From sequence record OZ035753.1: a DNA stretch of 45,099 nucleotides; one strand, written 5' to 3'. The notes below the pieces were generated by a model, which was not told the DNA's origin, ran no database searches, and saw only the letters and a list, made by a program, of their open reading frames with translations. Source of the DNA: Dhillonvirus LF50P3. The position numbers and the translations under genes are program-made. Positions 5,945-39,902 of the stretch are shown piece by piece (positions within the stretch are counted from its first letter, which is position 1; each line of letters begins with the position of its first letter).

Positions 5945-6649
5945 ATGAAACTTACTAAAGCAGAATATGACGCGTTGCCGGAAGGTATGAAGGCGCTTTT
6001 TGTTGCCGATGGCGACGGGTATAAATCAACGTTCATGACCGCTGAAGAAGTACAGGCGGAAATCAAGGGTCTGAAAGACAACAACGCGAAGCTGGTGAGC
6101 GAGAAGAAAGCAGAAGCCGAACGCCGCGCCGAAGCTGAGCGCCTTGCGAAAGAGAAAGAGGAAGCCGCCGCGCGCAAAAATGGCGACCTCGAAGCGATCG
6201 ACAAGTCCTGGAAAGATAAGTTTGCTAAACACGAAGCAGACACAGCGGGAAAAATCGAAGCCTACCGCAAGCAGATCCACGATCTAACCATCGGCAGCGC
6301 TGCCAAAGACCTGGCATCGAAGCTATTCGGTAAGAATGCGGGCATCATGCAACGCCACGTAATGGATCGTCTGACGCTGGAAGACGGCGAAGACGGCAGC
6401 TTGAAAGTGCGTGTCTTGCAGGATGGCAAACCGTCCGCGCTGACTATGGAAGAGTTAGAAAAAGAGTTCCGTAATAACGCCGATTTTGCATCCGTCCTGG
6501 CGGGCACGCCAGCCGGTGGTGCGCCTAGCAAACCGACGCAGGTTGTCGAAGATGTGAAGTCGAAAATCACTATGGGCCACAGCTTCGGTATCACTGACCT
6601 TACGAAACAGGCAGGTGAAATCATCGCTAAGATGGGCGACGACGAGTAA
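5945..6649 (+). CDS. head scaffolding protein (putative)
   Basis: 234-aa ORF from MKLTKAEYDALPEG with RBS AGGGGGA; Lys/Glu/Ala-rich coiled-coil-like segment AEAERRAEAERLAKEKEEAAARK; directly upstream of the major capsid gene. Confidence 0.6.
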   Translation: MKLTKAEYDALPEGMKALFVADGDGYKSTFMTAEEVQAEIKGLKDNNAKLVSEKKAEAERRAEAERLAKEKEEAAARKNGDLEAIDKSWKDKFAKHEADTAGKIEAYRKQIHDLTIGSAAKDLASKLFGKNAGIMQRHVMDRLTLEDGEDGSLKVRVLQDGKPSALTMEELEKEFRNNADFASVLAGTPAGGAPSKPTQVVEDVKSKITMGHSFGITDLTKQAGEIIAKMGDDE

Positions 6650-6746
6650 GCAGATTGCCCGCGAAAGCGGGCAATTTTGCGAGCGCGTAAATCTAAGGTA
6701 ACATTAACGTCACTGGGCGAATGCTCACAACTCAAAGGATTTCGAT

Positions 6747-7847
6747 ATGTCTTTAACAGTGTTCCAGCGTAAACTCGTTACCGCGGTTACGCAAATGATC
6801 CCCGACAACCTGAACGTATTCAACGCTGCCGCCAATGGCGCTGTTGTTCTCGGTACTGGTGAAGTGCTGAAGGATGTTATTGAGAAAATGTCCGTAGGCT
6901 TGATCGCCAACCTCGTTACCGACCGTAACGCCTACGCCCCTGTCGGCACTCCGGCAACCGCTAAAGTGCTGGCGCGTATGCTGACCAACTCCGTTAACCT
7001 ATCCGCGAAAGTGGGTCCGGTAGCAATCACTAAGGCTATGATGGCTAAGATCGAAACCAACGTTAACAGCGTTGCGGCTGAGATTGCGGCACAGGCTACT
7101 CAAGCGATTATGCTGCACTACCTGAAAGCTGGTATCGGCGCAAGTAAAGCGGCGATCGAAAGCAACGCAGCGGCAAAATACACCCAACCGGCGCGCGTTG
7201 ACGGCGTTGGCGGTCGTACCTTCCCGACCCTGGCAGACTTCCCGCTGGCGGCTTCTAAGTTCGGCGATCAGGCGTCTTTGATTAAGTCTTGGTTTATGGA
7301 CGGCGTTACCTGGGCAAACTTCATTGCGTACCAGGCACTCCCTTCCGCTGAACAGGTATTCGCAATTGGCGATCTCCAGGTAATGGGTGATGGCCTGGGC
7401 CGTCGCTTCATTATCTCCGATGCCGCTGCCGATGCTATGGGGGCGGGTAACATGCTGGGTCTGGTCCCTGGCGCGGTTGCAGTTACCACCAACGGCCTCG
7501 ATATGCTGGCGCAGGAGAAAGGCGGTAACGAGAACATCGAGCGCTGGTGGCAGGGCGAGTTCGACTTCAACGTGGCTGTTAAAGGCTACCGTCTGAAGGC
7601 GTCCGCTCGTACCCCGATCGAAGGCGTCCGCTCGTTCAAGCTGGACGATATCACCACTTCCGCTAACTGGGAACTGGACCAGGGTCAGGTAGACAACGCA
7701 CCGGCAACCGTGCAGGACGTTGGCGCTGTTGGTGATGGCGATACTAAAGGCCGTCGTAAGACCCAGGCCGCACAGGCAGTGCCTACCCGCCACATCAAGG
7801 AAACCGCTGGCGTACTGGTTACGCTGACGGCGACTACCGCGTCTTAA
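6747..7847 (+). CDS. major capsid protein
   Basis: 366-aa ORF after the scaffold gene, RBS AAAGGA, followed by a strong intrinsic terminator as expected for a highly expressed structural gene; size typical. Confidence 0.8.
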   Translation: MSLTVFQRKLVTAVTQMIPDNLNVFNAAANGAVVLGTGEVLKDVIEKMSVGLIANLVTDRNAYAPVGTPATAKVLARMLTNSVNLSAKVGPVAITKAMMAKIETNVNSVAAEIAAQATQAIMLHYLKAGIGASKAAIESNAAAKYTQPARVDGVGGRTFPTLADFPLAASKFGDQASLIKSWFMDGVTWANFIAYQALPSAEQVFAIGDLQVMGDGLGRRFIISDAAADAMGAGNMLGLVPGAVAVTTNGLDMLAQEKGGNENIERWWQGEFDFNVAVKGYRLKASARTPIEGVRSFKLDDITTSANWELDQGQVDNAPATVQDVGAVGDGDTKGRRKTQAAQAVPTRHIKETAGVLVTLTATTAS

Positions 7848-27623: not shown

Positions 27624-28330
27624 TTTAAATTTTCCTCGTTAACCGCTATCGCGAAGCCGCGCGGAGTGAGCGACCGGATTAATTTTGTGCGGGCTGATTT
27701 GCCTCCGAGGCGACTATACTGCTTCGAGTACCCTTTTTCAACGAAAACGGGTTTCTTCTCTGGCATACGGAAGCCGTTGCCGGTCCATAAGCAGGTCAGC
27801 TTCGGATATGAATCGCGGGCGTTGATGTATTCCGGGAAGAGCGGGTGTACGTCATCCTCCGGCAGATATCCCCCATACTCCCACGGGTCGAATGAGTGAT
27901 CCGGTTTGCGCCACTGGGTGGATAGCACACTGCGCGGATTCTCAATCATATATGGCACTTCGAAGAAGTCACCCAGGTAAGCGGCGATCTTCGCGGTGCG
28001 CACCGCCTTAAGCTGAAAGGCTGGGTCTTTTGCACGCTTGCGCGGGAAAGCTGGCGCACCGCTCACTGCCAGATCCGTGCACGGAGGAAACGCATAGATG
28101 ATATCTGGCGTACCGAAATCGCCATTCATCGCACGGTCTACAAAGTCCAGATCGATAAACTCATTGCGATACCGGATTCCGCGACCATAAATCCGGTAGT
28201 CAAGGTAAGACCCGTGATCGGCTTCGGAGTAGTTGAAGCAATAACACTTATGCCCCATCTCAGCCGCACGCTCAATCATCAAGCCGCTGCCGTCAAACAA
28301 CGACCAGATTGTCATTTTAGCAATAGTCAT
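27620..28330 (-). CDS. C5-cytosine DNA methyltransferase-like protein (compact)
   Basis: 236-aa ORF with motif I-like SLFDGSG, motif IV-like AFPPCTDLAVSG (catalytic Cys, Thr in place of the usual Gln) and motif VI-like MIENPRS; shorter than typical C5 methyltransferases. Confidence 0.5.
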   Translation of the reverse strand: MTIAKMTIWSLFDGSGLMIERAAEMGHKCYCFNYSEADHGSYLDYRIYGRGIRYRNEFIDLDFVDRAMNGDFGTPDIIYAFPPCTDLAVSGAPAFPRKRAKDPAFQLKAVRTAKIAAYLGDFFEVPYMIENPRSVLSTQWRKPDHSFDPWEYGGYLPEDDVHPLFPEYINARDSYPKLTCLWTGNGFRMPEKKPVFVEKGYSKQYSRLGGKSARTKLIRSLTPRGFAIAVNEENLK

Positions 28331-29787
28331 TTGCGCGCCTTTTTAGCTTTCATGTATTCCATCAAGTCGTCCTGGATATCTCGCTTACTGTCGCGGCGCT
28401 CGGCGACCAATTCGTCCAGTGTCCCGCGCGCCTGGATAATGTAGACGAATACCGGTCGAGGGTGTCCGGCCTGCATCTGGCGAACCGGCCCGATACGTTC
28501 AACGATCTGCGAAAAGTGCTCAAAGTTCCAGGTATCGGAGAAGATTGCCAGGTGATGACCGCCGTCCTGCAAGTTAAGGCCGTGGCCCGCCGATGCCGGG
28601 TGCGCAAACATGATGGGGATCTCGCCTCTGTTCCACGCTTCCATATCCTTATTGCCCTGCTTACCTTTACCCAGCGCAACGCCGTGCGGAAATTTCTTCT
28701 TAAGACGTGCCAGGTCATGCTTGTACTGATACGCAACGAGCAACGGCGCACCGTTCAACTCCTCCACGATACTTTCCAGCGCGTCCAGTTTGGCGTCGTG
28801 AATCTTCACCCACTCGTCGGTCCTTTCGCCGTCTTCGTCCACCTTATACACAGCGCCGGAAGCAAGCTGAAGGCACTTAATTGTCTTCGATGCCGCGTTC
28901 GCCGCTTCCACAGTCCCGCTTTCCAGTTCGGCGAATAGCTCGCTTTCAAACTGGTCGTAAATCTTGCGGGCTTTCTTCGGCAGGTCCACAACAACAGGCG
29001 TATAGATTGGCTTGTCGCACCCGAAATATTCAGCCGCGTCAACGGTGAGGGATACATCTGACAGACGTTGTTGTATCTCTTTCTCGGAGTTCTTTAGCGG
29101 AGCGTGCTGCATAGTGAAGCTGCCAGGCTTAACAGGCTTGCTAATGAACCAGCGGTCGGTAAATGCCTTATAGCTACTGCCGAGGCGTTCGCCACCGTCG
29201 ACAAACCACGTCTGACCCCATAAGTCTTTCAGCCCGTTGGGTGCGGGTGTGCCTGTAAGGTTAATCCAGCGCTTGACGTGTTTATGTGCAATCGCTGCCA
29301 GTGCGCGGGCGCGCTTGCTCCCCTGCTTGCTACGATAGCCTTTCAGCTTAGTCGATTCATCGGCAACAACGACCGTAAAGGGCCACGCATCGCCGTAATA
29401 TTCGACCAGCCACTCAACCACATCGTAGTTAACACAAACCACGTTAGCGTCGCTCTCAAGCGCGGCAATACGGTCCTTCTCCGGTCCGGTGCCGTCTACG
29501 ACCAGCAGGGATGAGAACCGCCATTTCTCCTGTTCCGGGGGCCATGTACCCGACGCAACACGCAGCGGGGCCAGCACCAGTACGCGGTCCTCATGATGGG
29601 ACAGGACGCCAGTCTGGAACATTTTATTCAGCGCCCACATTGTCGCGCCGGTTTTACCGGATCCCATTGTCGCCCATATATTACATCGCTTATGCTTGAG
29701 GATGAACGCGGTTATCAACTTCTGATATTCGCGGCGTCGGAAACGTGCCATATCTTTATTCCGCCTTTTTCCAGACTTCTGTTTCAC
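28327..29787 (-). CDS. SNF2/DEAD-like superfamily II helicase
   Basis: 486-aa ORF with Walker A-like MGSGKTG, DEAD-box-like VVADESTKL and C-terminal helicase-domain motifs. Confidence 0.8.
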   Translation of the reverse strand: MKQKSGKRRNKDMARFRRREYQKLITAFILKHKRCNIWATMGSGKTGATMWALNKMFQTGVLSHHEDRVLVLAPLRVASGTWPPEQEKWRFSSLLVVDGTGPEKDRIAALESDANVVCVNYDVVEWLVEYYGDAWPFTVVVADESTKLKGYRSKQGSKRARALAAIAHKHVKRWINLTGTPAPNGLKDLWGQTWFVDGGERLGSSYKAFTDRWFISKPVKPGSFTMQHAPLKNSEKEIQQRLSDVSLTVDAAEYFGCDKPIYTPVVVDLPKKARKIYDQFESELFAELESGTVEAANAASKTIKCLQLASGAVYKVDEDGERTDEWVKIHDAKLDALESIVEELNGAPLLVAYQYKHDLARLKKKFPHGVALGKGKQGNKDMEAWNRGEIPIMFAHPASAGHGLNLQDGGHHLAIFSDTWNFEHFSQIVERIGPVRQMQAGHPRPVFVYIIQARGTLDELVAERRDSKRDIQDDLMEYMKAKKARK

Positions 29788-30702: not shown

Positions 30703-32994
30703 TTACTTCCTGTACCTGTACATAATGTCGCCTTCGGCGGCAAGTGGGAAGCCTTTCGCCCAAATAGGCAGGTCGCACATCAGCGCGCAAAGCTCCTCGG
30801 TCGTGTAGTCGTCGGTGTCCGGCACTTCTGTGATCAATTCGTCGTGTACTGACAGGACGATTTCATACCCCGCAGCTTCAACGCCAGGCATGGACCATGC
30901 GAGAATATCGCGACACAACGCCTGTACGATGTTCTCCGTCAGTTTGCCGCCGTAGGTATACTGGAATCCCCACTGGCGCGTCGTCTGATTCTCGCCCTGA
31001 TATTTAATGCGTGTGCTGGTGCGCTTCTTGCCGGTGTCTTCGTCAATCTCGGTAGTGACAGACAGCGCGATGCCCGGGTAGCTCATGATGCGCCCCGACG
31101 GCAACTCAATTTTCAACCACCAACCGGCGGCGTTAGGGTCGTCGCGCTCCTCGTCGAAGGTTGGGTCGTGCTTCGCCTTCGTACGGACAATCTTGAGCGC
31201 TTTTCTACCGTCCGGGCGAACGTTCGCGCCCGCCCAGTATGCTTTGCCCGGATTGCGGATTGCACACAACACCGCGTCCTCAAGCTCGGCCCAAAAGGCT
31301 ACCGTCTTCGGGTGAGCCTCACGCCACATACGTTTGATTGCGTCACAAGTAAGCCATACGTTTTTCGGCAGTATGTATGTTGGGCGCTCGTCTTTCTTAC
31401 CTGGCTTCGGTGGGCGTTTCGCTTCGTTAATGCGGGCGTACTCATAACCACGTTTCGCCGCCGCCCAAATGTGATCCGGGAACGTGCCTTTCATCACGTC
31501 CGCCATAGTGTAAAGGTCGAGGCCCAGGTTTTTAGCGAACTGCAAGAACGCCGCGACGCCGCCACCATAGCCCAGTCCCAATTCGCACGCCTTACCAATC
31601 TGGCGTAAGTCCTTGCGGTTGGCTTTAATGTAATCCGGGTCCAGGCCGAACATCTTACCGGCAGTCTCACAATAGATATCGCGACCGGCCTTAAACACCA
31701 TGAGCGCTGTTTTCTCGCCCGCGATCCAGGCAAGGCCACGCCCTTCCACGTTGGAGTAGTCCGCTACGACAAACTTCTTGCCCTTCGCCGGAATAATGCA
31801 CCCGCGAACGGTCGAGGCGGTTAGCTTCGATATGTCATACGCCCAGTGCGCGGTCCCGCGTAACAGGGAGTTGATGCCGTTGGTGAGCATGTGCGACCGG
31901 ACCCAAAACGAGACGTCGCTTTCGCCTTCGCGGCGCTTAATCTTACCTTCGTGGTCGTCGCTATACTCGCCGCGTGCCAGGTTTTGAGGCTGAAAGCCTT
32001 TACCGGCCCAGCGCAGCGTGCGCTTTGCGCCGCCATACTGAAGACACCCACGGCGGCGACCATCGGCAGACAGGCCATTAACGAGCGGATTGTATTTAGT
32101 CGATGCCGTTGATGACGCTCCGAGGCGCATTTCGATAAGCGCTTTGCCCTCGTCGGGGAAGTCCGGGTCTTCAAGCAGGTCGTTAAGTGTGGATTTCTGC
32201 GCGTTGTGGATCGTGAACGCTGGGGCGATATCACGCAGGATTGGCAGGAAATCATTGCCGGTCAGCTTACCGCCAAATCGCTCCCAGGCTTCTTCCTTCA
32301 ATTCTTCCTTATGCGCCTGCACCGCTTTGATCGCGGCGTTCGCCAGGTCAACGTCCACATAGAAGCCGCGGTCGTTGATCAACTGGTCGATAAGCAGGAT
32401 TTCATCTTCCTTCGGAGTATTACCCCAGTCCGGTATGCGCCAGTAGACTTCACGCATTGCGATAATATCCAGCGCGGCATAGCGCAGAAATTTGGCCCAT
32501 TCTTCCGGGTGAGTCTCGCGAGTGTAGCGGCGTATTTTGTAGGTCTTAGGGGTAGGCTTACAGAATCGTTTAATCAGCGCCTTGCCTGCCTTATCCTTCG
32601 CGTGCTCTGCGTCAACGCCCAGCACCTGGCACTGCATATCGAGGCTACCCGGCAGCGCGTGGCGAAAGGCCATAATCATGGTGTCTTCGATCTGGCTTAC
32701 CGGCAGGTCGATGCCCCACTTCTCACGGATAACCAGGCGGTCAAACAGGAGGCCGTTAGCCATCACTATTTTTGCTTTCTTGCGGGATACATGGCGGAGC
32801 GCCTTGCGCAGTTCACGCGGCATTGTGGGGGATTCAGTGCAATCCCATGTCTGCACGCGGCCTTCGTCGATGGCGTAGGTGCAAATCATAATCTCGGTTG
32901 TTGGGTGCTCCGCGTAGGCGTACGCCCCAACTTTCTTCAGGTCCACCCCGCTAAATGTCTCGGTATCGAGAAACAGGCGTTCGAAGTCTTTCAT
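30703..32994 (-). CDS. DNA polymerase, family A, with N-terminal 3'-5' exonuclease domain
   Basis: 763-aa ORF: exonuclease motif LFLDTETFS; polymerase motif A VVADYSNVEGRGLAWIAGE; motif B RQIGKACELGLGYGGG; motif C VLSVHDELITE. Confidence 0.85.
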   Translation of the reverse strand: MKDFERLFLDTETFSGVDLKKVGAYAYAEHPTTEIMICTYAIDEGRVQTWDCTESPTMPRELRKALRHVSRKKAKIVMANGLLFDRLVIREKWGIDLPVSQIEDTMIMAFRHALPGSLDMQCQVLGVDAEHAKDKAGKALIKRFCKPTPKTYKIRRYTRETHPEEWAKFLRYAALDIIAMREVYWRIPDWGNTPKEDEILLIDQLINDRGFYVDVDLANAAIKAVQAHKEELKEEAWERFGGKLTGNDFLPILRDIAPAFTIHNAQKSTLNDLLEDPDFPDEGKALIEMRLGASSTASTKYNPLVNGLSADGRRRGCLQYGGAKRTLRWAGKGFQPQNLARGEYSDDHEGKIKRREGESDVSFWVRSHMLTNGINSLLRGTAHWAYDISKLTASTVRGCIIPAKGKKFVVADYSNVEGRGLAWIAGEKTALMVFKAGRDIYCETAGKMFGLDPDYIKANRKDLRQIGKACELGLGYGGGVAAFLQFAKNLGLDLYTMADVMKGTFPDHIWAAAKRGYEYARINEAKRPPKPGKKDERPTYILPKNVWLTCDAIKRMWREAHPKTVAFWAELEDAVLCAIRNPGKAYWAGANVRPDGRKALKIVRTKAKHDPTFDEERDDPNAAGWWLKIELPSGRIMSYPGIALSVTTEIDEDTGKKRTSTRIKYQGENQTTRQWGFQYTYGGKLTENIVQALCRDILAWSMPGVEAAGYEIVLSVHDELITEVPDTDDYTTEELCALMCDLPIWAKGFPLAAEGDIMYRYRK

Positions 32995-33161
32995 TGCTTT
33001 ATCCTCACTACGGCGTCAGCGCTGCCGATCATGGAGAAGATGCCGTCGGACAGGGCGATTTCTTCGCCGTTGTTGCGAATCTCGGCAACTGTGAAATATT
33101 CCCCCAGTAGCTTGGACCATACTTGCATTCCGACTTTTACTTCGCTGGCTTTAATACGCAT
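32991..33161 (-). CDS. hypothetical small protein translationally coupled to the polymerase
   Basis: 56-aa ORF (MRIKASEVKVG...) whose TGA stop overlaps the polymerase ATG (ATGA junction). Confidence 0.4.
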   Translation of the reverse strand: MRIKASEVKVGMQVWSKLLGEYFTVAEIRNNGEEIALSDGIFSMIGSADAVVRIKQ

Positions 33162-33177
33162 TTTTCATTGTCCTATT

Positions 33178-33199
33178 AAAAAGCCCGCATTAAGCGGGC
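33178..33199 (-). terminator. intrinsic terminator candidate after the SSB gene
   Basis: Minus-strand hairpin AGCCCGC-ttaat-GCGGGCT followed by TTTTT, downstream of the SSB stop at 33220. Confidence 0.5.
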
Positions 33200-33219
33200 T
33201 TGAATAGTGGGCTTTGCCC

Positions 33220-34002
33220 TTAACGGCGGCGACGTTTACGTGGCGCTTCGTCTTCGTCGTCGTCCTCATCTTCGTCATCGCGTGGCTTACGACGTTTGCG
33301 AGGTTTTTCATCTTCCTCATCGTCGTCGTCATCGCGGCGCTTGGATTTCTTGGACTTGCGCGGCTTGTCATCTTCGTCATCGTCATCACGACGTTTTGAC
33401 TTTTTGGACTTGCGCGGGCTTTCGTCTTCGTCATCGTTGTCCAGGTCTTCGTCGGAACATGAAGACCCGCCACCTCCGAAGGCTTCGCCGTCTTCACGGA
33501 ATCGCAGACCCAGCAAGCCAGCCCCGAGTCCCTTGCCGTTGGTATTGTTCCACGCCCAAATATCCAGGGACACATTGCAATAACAACCGGAGTAGATCTC
33601 CTGGCCTTCGATCTCGTCACCTTCTACGGTCAGACCTTGTTCCGTCTGCTTCTCGCCGAGTGACGTTTGAATGATCGGCTGTTTGAACGATTTGGCGTTG
33701 ATATACAACATGCCTTCGAATTCTTCGGTTACTTCATCGCGCTCGTCGCCGTCGCGCACTGCGCATTCCTTAGAATCCTGGGCGTAGTGGCGGTCCATCC
33801 ACTTATCGGCATTCTTCTCGGATTTCAGCTTGTCGGTGAGCACTGCGCGCGCTGCCGCTTCCACTTTGTCCACCTGCGGATCTTCTTTATCCAGAAGAAT
33901 CACGGCACGGTATGCCGGTTTTTGTCCATCCTGTTTAGGGGTATCACGTTCCCAAATTTTCAGGAAGCATACGCGCACATTTTTCAGGTTGACTTTAGCC
34001 AT
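33220..34002 (-). CDS. single-stranded DNA-binding protein, DUF2815-like (T7 gp2.5-type) with repetitive charged tail
   Basis: N-terminus MAKVNLKNVRVCFLKIWE typical of the DUF2815 phage SSB family; the C-terminal 80 residues are alternating poly-Asp/Glu and Lys/Arg blocks encoded by DNA-level tandem repeats. Confidence 0.6.
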   Translation of the reverse strand: MAKVNLKNVRVCFLKIWERDTPKQDGQKPAYRAVILLDKEDPQVDKVEAAARAVLTDKLKSEKNADKWMDRHYAQDSKECAVRDGDERDEVTEEFEGMLYINAKSFKQPIIQTSLGEKQTEQGLTVEGDEIEGQEIYSGCYCNVSLDIWAWNNTNGKGLGAGLLGLRFREDGEAFGGGGSSCSDEDLDNDDEDESPRKSKKSKRRDDDDEDDKPRKSKKSKRRDDDDDEEDEKPRKRRKPRDDEDEDDDEDEAPRKRRRR

Positions 34003-34092
34003 TTTCCAATTCCTCATTTTCACATATATCGGGGTTATTGGAAGCCACCCCGTTCGGCTTGGTTGCCAATTTACTTGGTTGCGCCTAAGCGG

Positions 34093-34335
34093 TCAAGCAT
34101 TTTCATTAAAAAGATTTCTGGTAACGTAGTCGGTAGCGTTCTCGATCCAGCTTAATGGCGGGCGGTCGATATTCTTCGCCCCCCAATCGGCGGCAGCTTC
34201 GCTATATCCGTCATCCAGCCAGCGGGTCGGATGCCGAATCATCCACGCCACCCTTAACACGCCATGCACACAATGCAGGATAAAGCCCAGCGCGCCGATA
34301 ACAAACATCAATAATATTGCGAATACTTTATTCAT
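34093..34335 (-). CDS. hypothetical membrane protein
   Basis: 80-aa ORF with N-terminal hydrophobic helix VFAILLMFVIGALGFILHCV. Confidence 0.4.
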   Translation of the reverse strand: MNKVFAILLMFVIGALGFILHCVHGVLRVAWMIRHPTRWLDDGYSEAAADWGAKNIDRPPLSWIENATDYVTRNLFNENA

Positions 34336-35758
34336 TGCTTAAGTCCTCGTCAGTAGCTACAGGCCACGCAGGGCGCGGGTCGTCGATGGGTGCTAATACC
34401 GGTTTAGCTGGTGCGCGCGTTATTTTATCACACAACTTTGCCCACACTTTCGGCTTCTCGTCCTTCAATACCTTCTCGGCATCAGTAGGGCTGAGTAATG
34501 TTTCTTTGTACATAACATCGCGCTTGATCCGGGCCTTCGTGAAGATTTCAATCACTTCGCTTTCGTCCGCCCACTTGCGGATCCCTTCCTTACCGGCAAC
34601 CATTTTGAGGCCCAGCGATTCGCCTTCGCCAGCCATAACCGCCTTGAATACCGCGGACTCTATAGCCTTGATGTGCTGGCGCATTGCGTCTAGACCTTCA
34701 TATGCCTTGCGCAGTTCTGCGGCGGTCATAGCGCCTGGGGCCGCTTCTTTCTTACCACGCTTCGCACGTCGTGCCGCTTTGCGGGCTTCGCGGGCCATAT
34801 TGCGGTCGTGATTGGCGCATTCTTCCTCTGTCGCAATACTCACGTCGTCGCCCAGGTCTTCGTCTGTTGCCGTTGGTGGGGCCATCGTGTCGATTGCGGC
34901 CTTAGCGCGGGCGCTACACTGATCCGCAAATCTGCACCACTGACACGCATCAACGCTCGGTCGGAAGTCGGCACGGGTGAGTCCCTTTTTGCCGCGGGCG
35001 TACGCTTCCAGGGCGGCGATAGCACGCTTGGACGCAAACTTCGCGAATATCTCCAGGGCTTCTACCGAAATATCCCACTCCGACGCCCCGCCGCAATACG
35101 GCTGGAAGATAACCAGGCGCACGGTCGTAATGTCGTACATGGATTGCAGCTTGCGCAGCAGGCCGAGCGCGTACAACATAAGCTGTTTGTTTTCTTTCGC
35201 CTCGACCTTATGTCGTCCCGTCTTCAGGTCGCCAACAATCAGCATGTACGTGCCGTCGGTCTTCTTCATGACCATGACCATATCCGCAGTGCCGAACGTC
35301 TTAACCCGGTTGCCGTCGATCTCGAAGCCAGAGTGTAGGACGCGGGTGAGATCGGCGCGCATCTCAAGCTGAACAAACTCCGCCACTTCGAGTAGCGGTC
35401 GCCAGTGGTCGATGTACGCGTCGCACTGTTTCACCATGTCGTCGTTGACCAGTACGCCGCCTTTCGGTGCTTTCGGGTGCGCCTTTACCGGCCCCTTACC
35501 TTCGTTCTCGACGTAGCACCCTTTGTACGTTTTCGCGGTTATCAGCTTCTCACCGGCGATAATGCGGTTGAGCACGACTTCCGATACGGTGTGCATACTC
35601 GTACCGTTAATAGCCGCTTGCCCGGATTCGTTCGGGATATCTTTTTCCACCACCAGGGCGGCGGGGCAACCCATCCATTTTTTAGCACCGGATGGGCCGA
35701 GTAATGAGTGTTCCGTGTTGCTGCCGGATTGCGTTTTACGTTTTGGTTTAATCGCCAT
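34328..35758 (-). CDS. Cas4/RecB-like PD-(D/E)xK nuclease, DUF2800-like, with C-terminal extension
   Basis: 476-aa ORF with N-terminal GPSGAKKWMGCPAA, central D...E.K-type core (LIVGDLKTG) and cysteine cluster CQWCRFADQC typical of Fe-S-containing Cas4-like nucleases; about 170-residue charged C-terminal extension. Confidence 0.65.
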   Translation of the reverse strand: MAIKPKRKTQSGSNTEHSLLGPSGAKKWMGCPAALVVEKDIPNESGQAAINGTSMHTVSEVVLNRIIAGEKLITAKTYKGCYVENEGKGPVKAHPKAPKGGVLVNDDMVKQCDAYIDHWRPLLEVAEFVQLEMRADLTRVLHSGFEIDGNRVKTFGTADMVMVMKKTDGTYMLIVGDLKTGRHKVEAKENKQLMLYALGLLRKLQSMYDITTVRLVIFQPYCGGASEWDISVEALEIFAKFASKRAIAALEAYARGKKGLTRADFRPSVDACQWCRFADQCSARAKAAIDTMAPPTATDEDLGDDVSIATEEECANHDRNMAREARKAARRAKRGKKEAAPGAMTAAELRKAYEGLDAMRQHIKAIESAVFKAVMAGEGESLGLKMVAGKEGIRKWADESEVIEIFTKARIKRDVMYKETLLSPTDAEKVLKDEKPKVWAKLCDKITRAPAKPVLAPIDDPRPAWPVATDEDLSNE

Positions 35759-37637: not shown

Positions 37638-39902
37638 ATGAGCTTGATTAAATTCGCTATAACAAAACCCGCTAAAAAAGGCGAAAAAGCCAGGGCGGAA
37701 AACTTCCAGATGACGACCGATGAGTTTTTCGAATTTATCAAAGATGCGAAAGAAATCTCCTCGGTGCATATCAACAAGACGGAAGATAAAGCCGAGTATG
37801 CGCGCCGCAAGCGTAAGGCCGATGGCATCGTGGCGTATACCAGTGACGGATTGCGTCGTAAGACCAGTGCGGTGGACCGCTCGATCCTGTTCTTTGATAT
37901 TGACCGCACCGACACCCGCACCCTGCGCCGCTGCCGTAAGGCGTTCATCGACGCGGGACTGGAGCACGTCTTCCACACCACTACCGGCGACCGCCACCCG
38001 CTGAAAGGCGGCACGCGTTGCGCTCGTTTCCTGGTGCTCACTGACAAGCCTGTACCGGCGGAAGACCTGGGCCGCGTCCAGTATGCACTATTACACCAAC
38101 TGGGCCTGTCAGATGTGGACTTCGACGATTGCACGAAAGACACAAACCGCCTTATGTACCTGCCTCACCAGCAATCGGTTGTTAAGTGTCACTACGGCAA
38201 ACGCGCCCGCGTCCGTCGTCTTCTTCGCCTGGCTGATAAGCTGGGAGTGGAAAAAGAGGAAGTACGCCGCGAACTAACCCAGGGCGATGACGGCGTGGCG
38301 GACGGTATTCTGGATTGGTGCTTCCAGGCGGGATTCGAACCGCTGTCGTCCGGTCGTGGTTATGAAGTGCCGTGCCCTAACGAACACCTGCATAGCGGCG
38401 AAGGGTCAACCGCTATCATGGTTAAGGATGGCGAGATCCGTTTCAAGTGTATGCACACCGGCAACGAGTGTTGCTCGGAACTGAATAGACACCAGCACCT
38501 GGCGCTACGTCTTATCGGGATCCCGGACCACCTGAACGTCGAACCGCACAACATGTCACGTAAGCAAATCGCCGCCATCCTTCCGGGACTGGACGATGAG
38601 GAAGTGGAATCGTGCTACGAACATATCGTTGATGCGGTCGGAGACGGCGACGAGTACGGCGTATGTACAGATGCAGACCTGGACAACGAGCCGGTTGCTC
38701 TGTTCAGTAAGCACGACCCGATCATCGAGGGGCTGATTAACTTCAAATCGACCTGGTATCTGGCTGGCGAGTCGAACATCGGTAAATCGTTCTACGTGCT
38801 GGGCCAGATGGCGTCAGTATCTGCCGGTATTCCGTTCGGCGGCGCGAAGGTCGTCCAGTCTCATTGCTTCTATTTCGACGCGGAAGGTGGCGAAGCCTCC
38901 AACCAGCGTAAGGAGGCATTGCAGATTAAATATGAGCACGACCTGGACAAGCTGCACATTATCGATCTGCAATCACGCGGCTGGGATATCACCAGCAAAT
39001 CCGGCTTGCGTGAAGTTATCAGCTTCATCAACCGCACCGCTAACGGCGAGCCGGTTGGCCTGGTGGCGTTCGACTCACTCAACCAGACTGTTGCGCTGCG
39101 GTCCGCCGATGCAAAACCGTTCGACGAGAACAACGCCAGCGATATGGGCGAAGTGGTCAAAGCGCTGAAGGCCATTGCGGAAAATACAGGCGGCAGTGCG
39201 GGCGTCATCCACCACCCGGCGAAAGGTGCAAACGGCAGCAGATCCCCCCGCGGGTCCGGCGCGCTGCATGGTGCTGTTGATTCTGCGTTCTTCCTGGAGC
39301 AACCGGACGACAACCAGCCAGGCCAATTGAACCTGTATCACGAAAAGGCACGTAACGGCATCAAGCAAGCGCCGCGCGGCTTCGTCCTGCTCAAGTGCAA
39401 GGTTAAGGTGGATCTCCGCAAGTCCGAAGCGTTCGAAGCCCACCAGTCCACCAGCGCCGGGCCAGACTTCGGCGATGTGGTTGCCGGTTGGGACGTCAAG
39501 CCGATTGCATCCACGCCACGCGACGAGACTCTGTACCTCGTACCGGTCGCCCTGGCACCGTTCGCTATTGAACAGGCGAAGGCTGCGGGCAAAGCAGCAG
39601 TTAAGGAAGAGAACGCCGCAGGGCCGCGCAACGAAAAAGAGAAAGTGCTTTATGCAGCACTGGAAAAACTGATGGAAGATAACCCGGACCATACCGGATT
39701 CAGCAAATCGGCAATTGTCCGCCAGGCTGGGCTTGCGAAAGGTGGCACATCTACGAAGGCAATAGACGATATGGTCGAGCGCGGCGTGCTTGGGTTTTAC
39801 ACAGACCCACACACCGGGGCCATCTATGGGTCGTCTAATATCGTCATCAAAACGAACATACCCATCACGCTTTCGGCTACCGATGACGACCTGAAAGATT
39901 AA
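37638..39902 (+). CDS. DNA primase/helicase fusion
   Basis: 754-aa ORF: N-terminal primase-like region with acidic cluster LFFDIDRTD, a Cys/His cluster (CPNEHLH...CMHTGNECC) and a C-terminal RecA/DnaB-like ATPase with Walker A GESNIGKS and Walker B-like LVAFDSL. Confidence 0.8.
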   Translation: MSLIKFAITKPAKKGEKARAENFQMTTDEFFEFIKDAKEISSVHINKTEDKAEYARRKRKADGIVAYTSDGLRRKTSAVDRSILFFDIDRTDTRTLRRCRKAFIDAGLEHVFHTTTGDRHPLKGGTRCARFLVLTDKPVPAEDLGRVQYALLHQLGLSDVDFDDCTKDTNRLMYLPHQQSVVKCHYGKRARVRRLLRLADKLGVEKEEVRRELTQGDDGVADGILDWCFQAGFEPLSSGRGYEVPCPNEHLHSGEGSTAIMVKDGEIRFKCMHTGNECCSELNRHQHLALRLIGIPDHLNVEPHNMSRKQIAAILPGLDDEEVESCYEHIVDAVGDGDEYGVCTDADLDNEPVALFSKHDPIIEGLINFKSTWYLAGESNIGKSFYVLGQMASVSAGIPFGGAKVVQSHCFYFDAEGGEASNQRKEALQIKYEHDLDKLHIIDLQSRGWDITSKSGLREVISFINRTANGEPVGLVAFDSLNQTVALRSADAKPFDENNASDMGEVVKALKAIAENTGGSAGVIHHPAKGANGSRSPRGSGALHGAVDSAFFLEQPDDNQPGQLNLYHEKARNGIKQAPRGFVLLKCKVKVDLRKSEAFEAHQSTSAGPDFGDVVAGWDVKPIASTPRDETLYLVPVALAPFAIEQAKAAGKAAVKEENAAGPRNEKEKVLYAALEKLMEDNPDHTGFSKSAIVRQAGLAKGGTSTKAIDDMVERGVLGFYTDPHTGAIYGSSNIVIKTNIPITLSATDDDLKD

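What the first reader, a model, noticed from the sequence alone, without database searches (positions are those of the whole stretch)
33220..33450. SSB with a tandem-repeat tail of alternating poly-acidic and poly-basic blocks
Seen directly: the C-terminal part of the DUF2815-like SSB is encoded by two to three imperfect DNA repeats of about 60 bp, giving ...DDEDESPRKSKKSKRRDDDDEDDKPRKSKKSKRRDDDDDEEDEKPRKRRKPRDDEDEDDDEDEAPRKRRRR. Established knowledge: phage and bacterial SSBs usually end in a short acidic tail used for partner-protein docking. An extended tail that interleaves strongly basic stretches is unusual and may be self-interacting or nucleic-acid-binding; the repeat also makes this a likely length-variable locus.
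Basis: partly seen in the sequence, partly recalled or inferred. Interest (0 to 1): 0.5.

Follow-up and report, generated by a model that had tools for sequence, protein, structure and literature searches.

The report
Phage SSB with repeated acidic/basic tail
The DNA-coating protein (SSB) of this E. coli phage ends in a real, selectively maintained, disordered tail of four acidic-then-basic repeat units; the number of units differs between related phages, and the tail ends in a run of arginines instead of the usual acidic tip.

Summary
The window is a Dhillonvirus, an HK578-like E. coli siphophage. Minus strand 33220..34002 encodes a 260-aa Enc34/T7-gp2.5-type SSB. Residues 1-183 form a confidently predicted OB fold. 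Residues 184-260 (33223..33453) are a predicted-disordered tail of four units, each [8-12 D/E]-x-Pro-[K/R-rich], ending ...EAPRKRRRR.

The DNA repeat has period 54, not about 60, with 2.3 copies. It is not an artefact: about 150 phage genomes carry it, and it is under purifying selection in this frame (pN/pS 0.13).

The predicted length variation is real. Isolated dhillonviruses carry 1, 2, 3 or 4 units, always in frame and always with the last unit kept.

The tail type is not unique. About 10% of cluster representatives found with the window's OB domain have such mixed-charge tails, with lineage-specific in-frame repeats of 39-78 nt. Most of the more distant relatives keep an acidic-hydrophobic tip. 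The clade containing the dhillonviruses mostly ends in oligo-arginine.

Function is inferred, not shown. I read the tail as an elongated version of the family's acidic tail. It would tune self-inhibition, SSB-SSB cooperativity or condensation, and partner docking through electrostatics.

Verdict: a new variant of a known kind, of moderate to low interest.

The parts
33220..34002 (-). SSB gene: 260 aa plus stop. The ATG start is preceded by GAGGAA 7 nt upstream. The ORF extends in frame to a GTG at 34023.
   Evidence: Pfam PF10991 E=1.9e-31. PHROG 112, gp2.5-like SSB/annealing protein, E=3e-57. The closest homologue, P0001, is 261 aa and starts at the same Met.
33454..34002 (-). OB-fold ssDNA-binding domain, residues 1-183, ending in the Gly-rich hinge FGGGGSSCS.
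   Evidence: AlphaFold2 block-mean pLDDT is 93-99 for residues 1-170 and 72 for 171-180. Foldseek: 5odl (Enc34 SSB bound to ssDNA) E=1.8e-12, 4klk E=2e-12, T7 gp2.5 1je5 E=2.4e-6. phmmer against PDB sequences.
33223..33453 (-). Disordered mixed-charge C-terminal tail: 77 aa with 36 D/E, 28 K/R and 5 Pro.
   Evidence: Fraction of charged residues 0.83, net charge -8, kappa 0.53. pLDDT 48-61 with no secondary structure. pN/pS 0.128.
33388..33453 (-). Unit 1, DEDLDNDDEDES-PRKSKKSKRR. Its acidic part, with the conserved Leu, lies where the family's canonical short acidic tail lies.
   Evidence: The family consensus after the OB domain is D.FDDL.D..D..P.
33334..33387 (-). Unit 2, DDDDEDDK-PRKSKKSKRR (net charge +1). 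It is an internal unit and is absent from the 3-unit phages HK578, EK99P-1 and Envy.
33280..33333 (-). Unit 3, DDDDDEEDEK-PRKRRKPR (net charge -2). It is an internal unit and is absent from the 2-unit phage EP23 and the 1-unit phage welsh.
33223..33279 (-). Unit 4, DDEDEDDDEDEA-PRKRRRR-COOH. The terminal PRKRRRR is kept in every complete dhillonvirus gene examined (the residue before the Ala is E in all but one).
   Evidence: Relatives at 43-76% identity end in [D/E]n-x-P-R-R-R-R-R.
33313..33437 (.). DNA-level tandem repeat: period 54, 2.3 copies, 82% matches.
33181..33201 (-). GC-rich hairpin AAGCCCGC-TTAAT-GCGGGCTT followed by T-rich sequence, 19 nt after the SSB stop. It is a likely intrinsic terminator or attenuator before the 56-aa ORF and the polymerase gene.
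   Evidence: The 61-nt stretch containing it folds at -24.6 kcal/mol, z -4.9, with 0 of 200 shuffles as stable. Some related records annotate a 'terminator' within the 1.2-kb matched stretch. The simple terminator scan did not flag it.
34068..34096 (-). Sigma-70-like promoter match (TTGACC-17-TAAATT) upstream of the SSB gene.
   Evidence: one site was found where about 0.8 is expected by chance, so this is weak on its own. Retron-Eco8 escape mutants of SECphi4 and SECphi18 include mutations in the intergenic region upstream of this gene.

Best explanation
Shown: the region encodes the genuine C-terminal 77 residues of the phage's Enc34/T7-gp2.5-type SSB. This tail is predicted to be disordered and is a block-wise mixture of charges built from four units of [8-12 Asp/Glu]-x-Pro-[Lys/Arg-rich].

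I read it as an elongated form of the family's canonical short acidic tail, for three reasons. The proximal acidic segment, with its conserved Leu, is retained. Roughly charge-neutral acid/basic units are inserted, so the tail's net charge stays near -8, as in short-tailed relatives. The usual acidic-hydrophobic tip is replaced by a conserved ...PRKRRRR-COOH.

The array grows and shrinks by in-frame gain or loss of whole units. Viable dhillonviruses carry 1-4 units.

Inferred mechanism: the acidic blocks compete with DNA for the basic ssDNA groove of the OB domain. This is the self-inhibition and ssDNA-versus-dsDNA discrimination shown for Enc34 ORF6 and T7 gp2.5. The interleaved basic blocks pair with acidic blocks of neighbouring SSB molecules and/or with the DNA backbone. 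The result would be multivalent, salt-sensitive SSB-SSB contacts that set cooperativity or condensation on ssDNA. The internal units would be dispensable tuning elements. The terminal acidic block plus oligo-Arg would be the conserved functional tip, for partner docking or DNA contact.
For: Identity of the protein:
- Pfam PF10991 at 109.5 bits and PHROG 112.
- PDB relatives 4klk, 4jg2 and 5odj.
- AlphaFold2 gives a confident OB fold and a tail with pLDDT about 50.
- Foldseek matches 5odl at 1.8e-12 and 1je5 at 2.4e-6.
- The gene sits in a replication module of DUF2800 nuclease, SSB, PolA, SNF2 helicase and primase-helicase.

The tail is real and under constraint:
- 154 related phage records match.
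- pN/pS is 0.128 for the tail and 0.058 for the core, with pS about 0.3.
- All indels in the tail are multiples of 3.
- The repeat is kept at the protein level while synonymous sites are randomised.

Copy number: 4 units in most phages; 3 in HK578, EK99P-1, Envy and SECphi4; 2 in EP23; 1 in welsh. The last unit is always present.

Family-wide pattern:
- Of 254 homologues, 138 have short acidic tails, 51 have mixed tails with an acidic end and 65 have mixed tails with a basic end.
- Other lineages have their own in-frame repeats of 39/78, 42 and 57 nt, within the same gene module.
- Pro follows the acidic block at 291 of 311 acid-to-basic junctions, but lies at only 26 of 295 basic-to-acid junctions.
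- Median net tail charge is -8 in short tails and -7 in basic-ended mixed tails.

Basis for the mechanism:
- Removing the acidic tail of Enc34 ORF6 gives it dsDNA binding, and in the crystal the tail lies in a neighbouring molecule's groove (PMC5686142).
- Alternating charge blocks drive self-assembly of the Caulobacter RNase E C-terminal domain (10.1101/272286).
- The disordered linker of E. coli SSB governs condensation (PMC12143593).
Against: There is no functional data on this tail. Phage welsh is viable with one unit, so the internal repeats are not essential and could be nearly neutral.

The family statistics come from related sequences and are not independent events. The neighbour-joining tree behind 'multiple gains' is rough. 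The first homologue search was biased towards similar tails because its candidates are picked by shared words. The unbiased set shows mixed tails in only about 10% of representatives.

The more acidic OB core of the basic-ended class (median net charge -7 against +2) is confounded with phylogeny.

No partner protein for the oligo-Arg tip was identified.
Confidence: 0.5

Rival explanations
1. The tail is a nearly neutral low-complexity expansion. Slippage or unequal recombination in GAY/GAR and AAR/CGN-rich DNA produces repeats that are tolerated so long as the net charge and the terminal unit are preserved. On this view the internal units have no function of their own.
For: Viable phages carry 1-4 units. 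The internal units are about charge-neutral, at +1 and -2. Net tail charge is the same in short and long tails. Each lineage has its own repeat period.
Against: pN/pS of 0.13 at pS 0.31 shows amino-acid-level constraint inside the tail. Units 1 and 2 stay nearly identical in protein while their synonymous sites are randomised. The directional D/E-x-P-K/R junction is conserved across clades that share about 30% identity. Most dhillonviruses keep 4 units.
Confidence: 0.28
2. The basic blocks are primarily extra nucleic-acid-binding arms, either for strand annealing (gp2.5-like annealing activity) or for binding dsDNA or RNA. They would not be SSB-SSB contact sites. The adjacent acidic blocks would only mask them until DNA is engaged.
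For: PHROG 112 is annotated as an ssDNA-binding and annealing protein. The basic blocks are K/R-rich with S and P, like many DNA-binding tails, which the sequence shows directly. The positive patches of RNase E were proposed to bind RNA as well.
Against: The tail is net negative (-8), and every basic block is flanked by an equal or larger acidic block. That predicts weak net DNA affinity. In Enc34, the tail reduces dsDNA binding rather than adding binding.
Confidence: 0.12
3. The tail is a fast-changing surface that helps the phage evade host defences that sense SSB, such as Retron-Eco8, Hachiman and ShosTA.
For: The SSBs of the closely related phages SECphi4 and SECphi18 trigger Retron-Eco8. 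Copy number differs between SECphi4 (3 units) and SECphi18 (4 units).
Against: All Retron-Eco8 escape mutations listed for SECphi4 and SECphi18 are T56P in the OB domain or lie in the upstream intergenic region; none is in the tail. [quoted passage not shown]
Confidence: 0.04
4. The effect is at the level of translation. Long Asp/Glu runs followed by Pro can destabilise the ribosome. The basic blocks might counteract this, or abortive translation at each junction might yield a ladder of shorter SSB forms.
For: Acidic runs with intermittent prolines are the described trigger of intrinsic ribosome destabilisation (abstract of 10.1101/2021.02.02.429294). Every acid-to-basic junction here carries a Pro.
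Against: From my own recollection of that work, not checked here, the effect is strongest near N-termini and is counteracted by a long nascent chain. This tail follows 183 residues. There is no evidence of truncated products.
Confidence: 0.03
5. The tail is an artefact, or the wrong reading frame: the true C-terminus lies upstream, or another frame is the one translated.
For: The alternative frame (ORF 33165..33620) is open across the whole tail. Two database proteins, P0005 and P0008, carry tails shifted into that frame. In phage 22664B1 this is due to a 2-nt insertion at the start of the tail.
Against: About 150 independent genomes share the standard frame. All natural indels are multiples of 3, and synonymous change far exceeds non-synonymous change in this frame. 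The frameshifted proteins are single records whose downstream DNA still carries the standard-frame codon pattern.
Confidence: 0.02

Closest known systems
Enterobacter/Hafnia phage Enc34 ORF6 SSB (PF10991/DUF2815; PDB 5odj, 5odk, 5odl)
   Same: Same Pfam family, same OB-fold variant and same replication gene module. Both have a disordered C-terminal segment that starts with an acidic stretch directly after the conserved ...DGEAFGG motif.
   Different: The Enc34 tail is short and purely acidic: 16 of its last 29 residues are D/E, and by my translation of the paper's cloning primer it ends ...WDEDEV. The window's tail is 77 aa, interleaves four basic blocks and ends in PRKRRRR. Sequence identity is only about 22% in the structure-based alignment.
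T7 gene 2.5 protein (PDB 1je5)
   Same: Same structural class of SSB (Foldseek E=2.4e-6). Both have a Gly-rich hinge followed by a charged disordered tail. Both trigger Retron-Eco8.
   Different: gp2.5 has a 26-residue acidic tail ending in Phe (sequence). That tail docks on the polymerase and the helicase-primase. It has no basic blocks, no repeats and no basic terminus.
E. coli SSB disordered linker plus acidic tip (DDDIPF)
   Same: Same overall logic: an OB core, then a long disordered region that controls cooperativity or condensation, then a terminal docking element.
   Different: It is an unrelated OB family; there is no PF00436 hit. Its linker is Gly/Gln/Pro-rich and sparsely charged, whereas here 83% of tail residues are charged. 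Its tip is acidic-hydrophobic, not oligo-Arg.
C-terminal domain of Caulobacter/alpha-proteobacterial RNase E (BR-bodies)
   Same: A bacterial disordered region with alternating positive and negative charge blocks, poorly conserved in sequence but conserved in pattern. In RNase E these blocks are needed for salt-sensitive self-assembly with nucleic acid.
   Different: A different protein and process (RNA decay). There is no homology. Phase separation by the SSB tail is untested.
Eukaryotic nucleolar proteins with alternating acidic and basic tracts (nucleophosmin, Nopp140) and the charge blocks of Ddx4. This comparison rests on my own knowledge and was not checked here.
   Same: Alternating acidic and basic tracts in disordered regions mediate electrostatic self-interaction and nucleic-acid-dependent condensation.
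   Different: They are eukaryotic and unrelated in sequence. Their acidic tracts are often phosphoserine-dependent. The resemblance is an analogy only.

Membership tests
PF10991 / DUF2815 Enc34-type (T7 gp2.5-like) phage SSB | Matches the Pfam model above its gathering score. | tested here: met
   109.5 bits against a cut-off of 26; residues 10-200 match model positions 2-173 of 176.
PF10991 / DUF2815 Enc34-type (T7 gp2.5-like) phage SSB | The OB-fold variant seen in 5odj, 4klk and 1je5. | tested here: met
   The AlphaFold2 model has block-mean pLDDT of 93 or more for residues 1-170. Foldseek: 5odl E=1.8e-12 with target-normalised TM-score 0.70; 4klk TM-score 0.75; 1je5 E=2.4e-6.
PF10991 / DUF2815 Enc34-type (T7 gp2.5-like) phage SSB | A conserved aromatic residue at the start of strand beta-4 that stacks on a base (Enc34 W150, T7 Y158). 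| tested here: inconclusive
   Y137 is at least 90% conserved, and G139 and C140 are invariant, in the motif IYSGCY. This motif aligns with YSG.Y in 4klk and 4jg2. Equivalence to Enc34 W150 is inferred from the paper's description, not from a superposition I inspected.
PF10991 / DUF2815 Enc34-type (T7 gp2.5-like) phage SSB | Preferential ssDNA binding. | not testable with these tools
   There is only indirect support. The SSB of the closely related phage SECphi4 activates Retron-Eco8 when expressed, and a later paper cites it as binding the retron's msDNA.
PF10991 / DUF2815 Enc34-type (T7 gp2.5-like) phage SSB | A short acidic C-terminal tail ending in an acidic-hydrophobic tip. | tested here: not met
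   An acidic proximal segment is present (DEDLDNDDEDE), but the tail is 77 aa with four basic blocks and ends in PRKRRRR. This is a variant tail on a protein that is otherwise a clear member.
PF10991 / DUF2815 Enc34-type (T7 gp2.5-like) phage SSB | Location in a module of DUF2800 nuclease, SSB and family-A polymerase. | tested here: met
   DUF2800/PD-(D/E)XK nuclease at 34328-35758, PolA at 30703-32994, SNF2-type helicase at 28327-29787 and primase-helicase at 37638-39902.
Bacterial SSB (PF00436) with disordered linker and DDDIPF tip | SSB-type OB domain, Gly/Gln/Pro-rich linker and an acidic-hydrophobic C-terminal tip. | tested here: not met
   There is no PF00436 hit. E. coli SSB 1qvc matches only at E about 1. 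The tail composition is 47% D/E and 36% K/R. The terminus is basic.
Charge-block disordered regions that self-assemble (RNase E C-terminal-domain type) | Predicted disorder with segregated blocks of opposite charge. | tested here: met
   pLDDT 48-61 and no secondary structure. Kappa 0.53 against 0.10 +/- 0.04 for shuffles, and 83% charged residues.
Charge-block disordered regions that self-assemble (RNase E C-terminal-domain type) | Salt-sensitive self-association or condensation, modulated by nucleic acid. | not testable with these tools
   This needs purified protein. No data were found in the literature searches.

The most novel reading that the evidence does not exclude
A lineage of gp2.5/Enc34-type phage SSBs has replaced the supposedly universal acidic-hydrophobic docking tip with an oligo-arginine tip. 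It has also turned the tail into a repeat array of charge blocks. On this reading the array drives electrostatic SSB-SSB condensation, forming a phage replication compartment on ssDNA. The strength of condensation would be tuned by the number of units, which changes easily through in-frame recombination. This would be a new mode of partner docking and a genetically adjustable condensate scaffold in a phage.
Probability: 0.2. Interest if true: 0.6.

Novelty: new variant of a known kind. Interest (0 to 1): 0.35.

Why it matters
SSB C-terminal tails are the hub through which replication, recombination and repair proteins are recruited. The accepted picture for bacteria and phages is an acidic tail with a hydrophobic tip.

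This protein belongs to a well-sampled group of E. coli phages that includes SECphi4 and SECphi18, whose SSB triggers Retron-Eco8. Its tail is an acid/basic repeat array ending in oligo-arginine, and nature has already supplied variants with 1, 2, 3 and 4 units. That makes a ready-made series for testing how charge-block number affects three things: SSB self-inhibition, cooperativity or condensation, and replisome coupling.

If the tail turns out to be only a tolerated expansion, the result is still useful. It would show which parts of the tail are constrained: its net charge of about -8, the proximal acidic segment with the conserved Leu, and the terminal unit.

Tried and rejected
- Rfam scan of the whole window found no RNA family.
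- The simple terminator scan did not flag the hairpin downstream of the stop codon. Folding shows it is strongly stable, so I keep it as a likely terminator.
- Looking up the genomic context of P0072 (Amorphus orientalis) found no record. I used P0079 and P0102 for the acid-ended class instead.
- Three literature searches (DUF2815; SSB + phage + polyampholyte; SSB linker + charge patterning) found no description of this tail.
- I tested whether defence-escape mutations fall in the tail. They do not: they are T56P or upstream intergenic changes, so the defence-evasion reading is rejected.
- I tested the alternative-frame and artefact idea through the frameshifted database proteins P0005 and P0008. 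P0005 is explained by a 2-nt insertion in a single record whose downstream DNA keeps the standard-frame pattern. Rejected.
- My first motif-based extraction of tails was unreliable for many short-tailed proteins. I replaced it with tail boundaries taken from phmmer domain coordinates.
- The first homologue search picks its candidates by shared words and so over-represents similar tails. I corrected this with a search using the OB domain alone against 1.84 billion representatives.

Full report
**What is there**

The window is a Dhillonvirus, an HK578-like E. coli siphophage. A 1.2-kb stretch around the finding matches 154 phage records at 83-97% identity. These include HK578, EP23, SSL-2009a, Sodalis phage SO-1 and SECphi18.

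The probable start is the ATG at 34002, which has GAGGAA 7 nt upstream. This gives a 260-aa protein, the same length class as the closest database homologues.

The protein is a clear member of the Enc34/T7-gp2.5-type SSB family:
- Pfam PF10991 at 109.5 bits, against a cut-off of 26.
- PHROG 112, 'Gp2.5-like ssDNA binding and annealing protein'.
- Sequence matches to the solved structures 4klk, 4jg2 and 5odj.
- An AlphaFold2 model whose residues 1-170 have block-mean pLDDT of 93 or more.
- Foldseek matches of that model to Enc34 SSB bound to ssDNA (5odl, E=1.8e-12) and to T7 gp2.5 (1je5, E=2.4e-6).

It sits in the expected replication module. The DUF2800 PD-(D/E)XK nuclease and an 80-aa ORF lie upstream. 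A 56-aa ORF and then the family-A polymerase lie downstream. The SNF2-type helicase and the primase-helicase are nearby.

**The tail itself**

Residues 184-260 (33223..33453) follow the Gly-rich hinge FGGGGSSCS and form four units:
- U1: DEDLDNDDEDES-PRKSKKSKRR
- U2: DDDDEDDK-PRKSKKSKRR
- U3: DDDDDEEDEK-PRKRRKPR
- U4: DDEDEDDDEDEA-PRKRRRR-stop

Of the 77 residues, 36 are D/E, 28 are K/R and 5 are Pro. The net charge is -8. The charge-segregation measure kappa is 0.53, against 0.10 +/- 0.04 for shuffled sequences. AlphaFold2 gives pLDDT 48-61 and no secondary structure for this region.

Tandem Repeats Finder reports period 54 with 2.3 copies and 82% matches at 33313..33437. At the protein level there are four units.

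The lag-54 similarity of 44/54 is never reached by codon shuffles (0 of 2000). It is reached in 290 of 2000 trials when the protein is held fixed and synonymous codons are permuted. So the duplication is old, and the repeat is maintained at the protein level rather than as recent DNA.

**Not an artefact, and the frame is right**

I extracted the SSB gene from 17 dhillonviruses. In pairwise comparisons, pN/pS is 0.058 for the OB core and 0.128 for the tail, with pS of 0.25 and 0.31. This is clear purifying selection in this frame. Every indel in the tail alignment is a multiple of three.

The other frame is open across the tail (ORF 33165..33620). Two database proteins carry tails shifted into it (P0005 and P0008). 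For P0005, from phage vB_EcoS-22664B1, the cause is a 2-nt insertion at the start of the tail. It occurs in a single record whose downstream DNA still has the standard-frame codon pattern. It is either an error or a very recent mutation.

Most dhillonviruses have four units (259-261 aa). The exceptions seen are:
- 3 units: HK578 (240 aa), EK99P-1 (241 aa), Envy (236 aa) and SECphi4.
- 2 units: EP23 (224 aa).
- 1 unit: phage welsh (202 aa), with the tail SDEDLDNDDEDEAPRKRRRR.

In a spread sample of 60 records, about 11 are shorter by 45-174 nt across this stretch. All variants keep the proximal acidic segment and the terminal PRKRRRR. The internal units are therefore dispensable for viability, and the terminal unit appears not to be.

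**How unusual it is**

My first homologue search suggested that such tails are everywhere. That search selects its candidates by shared words, so it is biased towards similar tails. A search with the OB domain alone against 1.84 billion cluster representatives found 2,168 relatives. Of the best 142 with a full OB domain, 128 have the canonical short acidic tail with a hydrophobic end. Six have acid/basic units followed by an acidic end, and eight have acid/basic units with a basic end. Mixed-charge tails are thus a recurrent minority, about 10%.

Pooling both searches gives 254 proteins: 138 short-tailed, 51 mixed with an acidic end (up to 12 basic blocks) and 65 mixed with a basic end. A rough neighbour-joining tree of the OB domains needs at least 13 changes between short and mixed tails. 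It places the window in a 72-member all-mixed clade, of which 58 are basic-ended. I treat this tree as indicative only.

Other lineages carry their own in-frame DNA repeats, of 39/78, 42 and 57 nt, within the same gene module. This fits repeated, independent expansions.

Two regularities cross lineages:
- A proline follows the acidic block at 291 of 311 acid-to-basic junctions, but occurs at only 26 of 295 basic-to-acid junctions. The unit is directional: [D/E]n-x-P-[K/R]n.
- Net tail charge is about the same whatever the length: median -8 in short tails, -7 in basic-ended mixed tails, and -8 in this window.

The OB core is more acidic in the basic-ended class (median -7 against +2). This is confounded with phylogeny.

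**What it most likely does**

Shown: this is the disordered C-terminal tail of a replication SSB, it is under selection, and it is modular.

Inferred: it works as an elongated version of the family's acidic tail. In Enc34 ORF6, the acidic tail lies in the groove of a neighbouring molecule in the crystal. Deleting it lets the protein bind dsDNA as well as ssDNA (PMC5686142). T7 gp2.5 uses its tail to contact the polymerase and the helicase-primase. I propose three roles here:
- The acidic blocks play that DNA-mimicking, self-inhibiting role.
- The interleaved basic blocks pair with acidic blocks of neighbouring SSBs and/or with the DNA backbone. This would give multivalent, salt-sensitive contacts that tune cooperativity or condensation.
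- The conserved acidic block plus oligo-Arg terminus replaces the acidic-hydrophobic tip as the docking or DNA-contact element.

The closest functional analogies are the alternating charge blocks of the alpha-proteobacterial RNase E C-terminal domain, which are required for self-assembly (10.1101/272286), and the disordered linker of E. coli SSB, which governs condensation (PMC12143593). Neither is homologous to this tail.

I put about 0.9 on the descriptive account and about 0.35 on the specific mechanism. The main rival, at about 0.28, is that the internal units are nearly neutral expansions constrained only in net charge.

**Rejected readings**

- Defence evasion. The SSBs of SECphi4 and SECphi18 trigger Retron-Eco8. 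The escape mutations are T56P or upstream intergenic changes, never in the tail. Deleting the T7 C-tail does not affect activation.
- A translational effect through ribosome destabilisation by acidic runs plus Pro. This is conceivable but unsupported.
- Artefact or alternative frame. Refuted as described above.

**Novelty**

The protein and its family are known. Several related records annotate it as an SSB, and the SECphi4 homologue has been expressed experimentally. In the papers I could search, nobody describes the repeat architecture, its copy-number variation or the basic terminus. The one paper that shows the SECphi4 model omits the 'flexible C-terminal residues'.

I rate this as a new variant of a known kind, of moderate to low interest. 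Its practical value is that a natural 1-4-unit series already exists for experiments.

Noticed in passing
window 33165-33219 (hairpin 33181-33201) and the 56-aa ORF at 32991-33161: [quoted passage not shown] The changes are +TT, G->T and an ATTAA->TTAAT change; ATTAA is the hairpin-loop sequence in this window, so it looks like a loop inversion (the match to SECphi4 coordinates was not checked). Other escapers, in a phage not identified in the excerpt read, have an E21 frameshift in the 56-aa ORF, whose sequence is identical to the window's. The system name rests on the main text attributing the T5 and SECphi4 polymerase escapers to Borvo; I did not see the table row header itself.
   Followed up: partly
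window 33835-33837 (codon for T56 of the SSB): The window's SSB has Thr56, the residue changed to Pro in the Retron-Eco8 escape mutants of SECphi4 and SECphi18. This phage is therefore predicted to be sensitive to Retron-Eco8. That is an inference.
   Followed up: partly
window 33165-33620, minus strand, alternative frame; L022 1100-1420: A 151-aa ORF in another frame stays open through the whole tail. GenBank record MZ234008.1 (phage vB_EcoS-22664B1) annotates a 269-aa SSB that shifts into this frame through a 2-nt insertion (GGCGACGCGATGAC against GGACAA--CGATGAC). It is probably a sequencing error, but this is unresolved.
   Followed up: partly
L014, end of contig IMGVR_UViG_3300045988_003101: The SSB tail on this contig runs into ...RRDDAVSYTHLRAHET at the end of the contig. 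I recognise this as the translation of a Nextera transposase adapter, from my own knowledge. If so, the IMG/VR contig ends in untrimmed adapter inside the repeat.
   Followed up: no
phage records MG065648.1 and PQ843332.1: 'Campylobacter phage A144' (35 kb, unannotated) is 95.6% identical to this E. coli dhillonvirus across the SSB region. Single records labelled Acinetobacter and Salmonella phage also match. These are probably contaminants or mislabelled hosts. PQ843332.1 (P-GXEC-L2P5) is 88.6 kb with three matching places, which suggests a concatenated or chimeric assembly.
   Followed up: no
L019-L021 (metagenomic relatives), genes at about 6001-6890: Relatives at 31-48% identity sit in the same DUF2800 - SSB - polymerase - SNF2 module. 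In L020 and L021 the roughly 695-aa gene in the polymerase position has no Pfam hit on record. A GcrA/Trans_reg_C-like regulator lies upstream of DUF2800.
   Followed up: no
window 34093-34335, minus strand: An 80-aa ORF between the DUF2800 nuclease and the SSB matches PHROG 11211 (unknown function). It has a hydrophobic N-terminal stretch, MNKVFAILLMFVIGALGFILHCV, that looks like a transmembrane segment. This is odd in the middle of a replication module.
   Followed up: no
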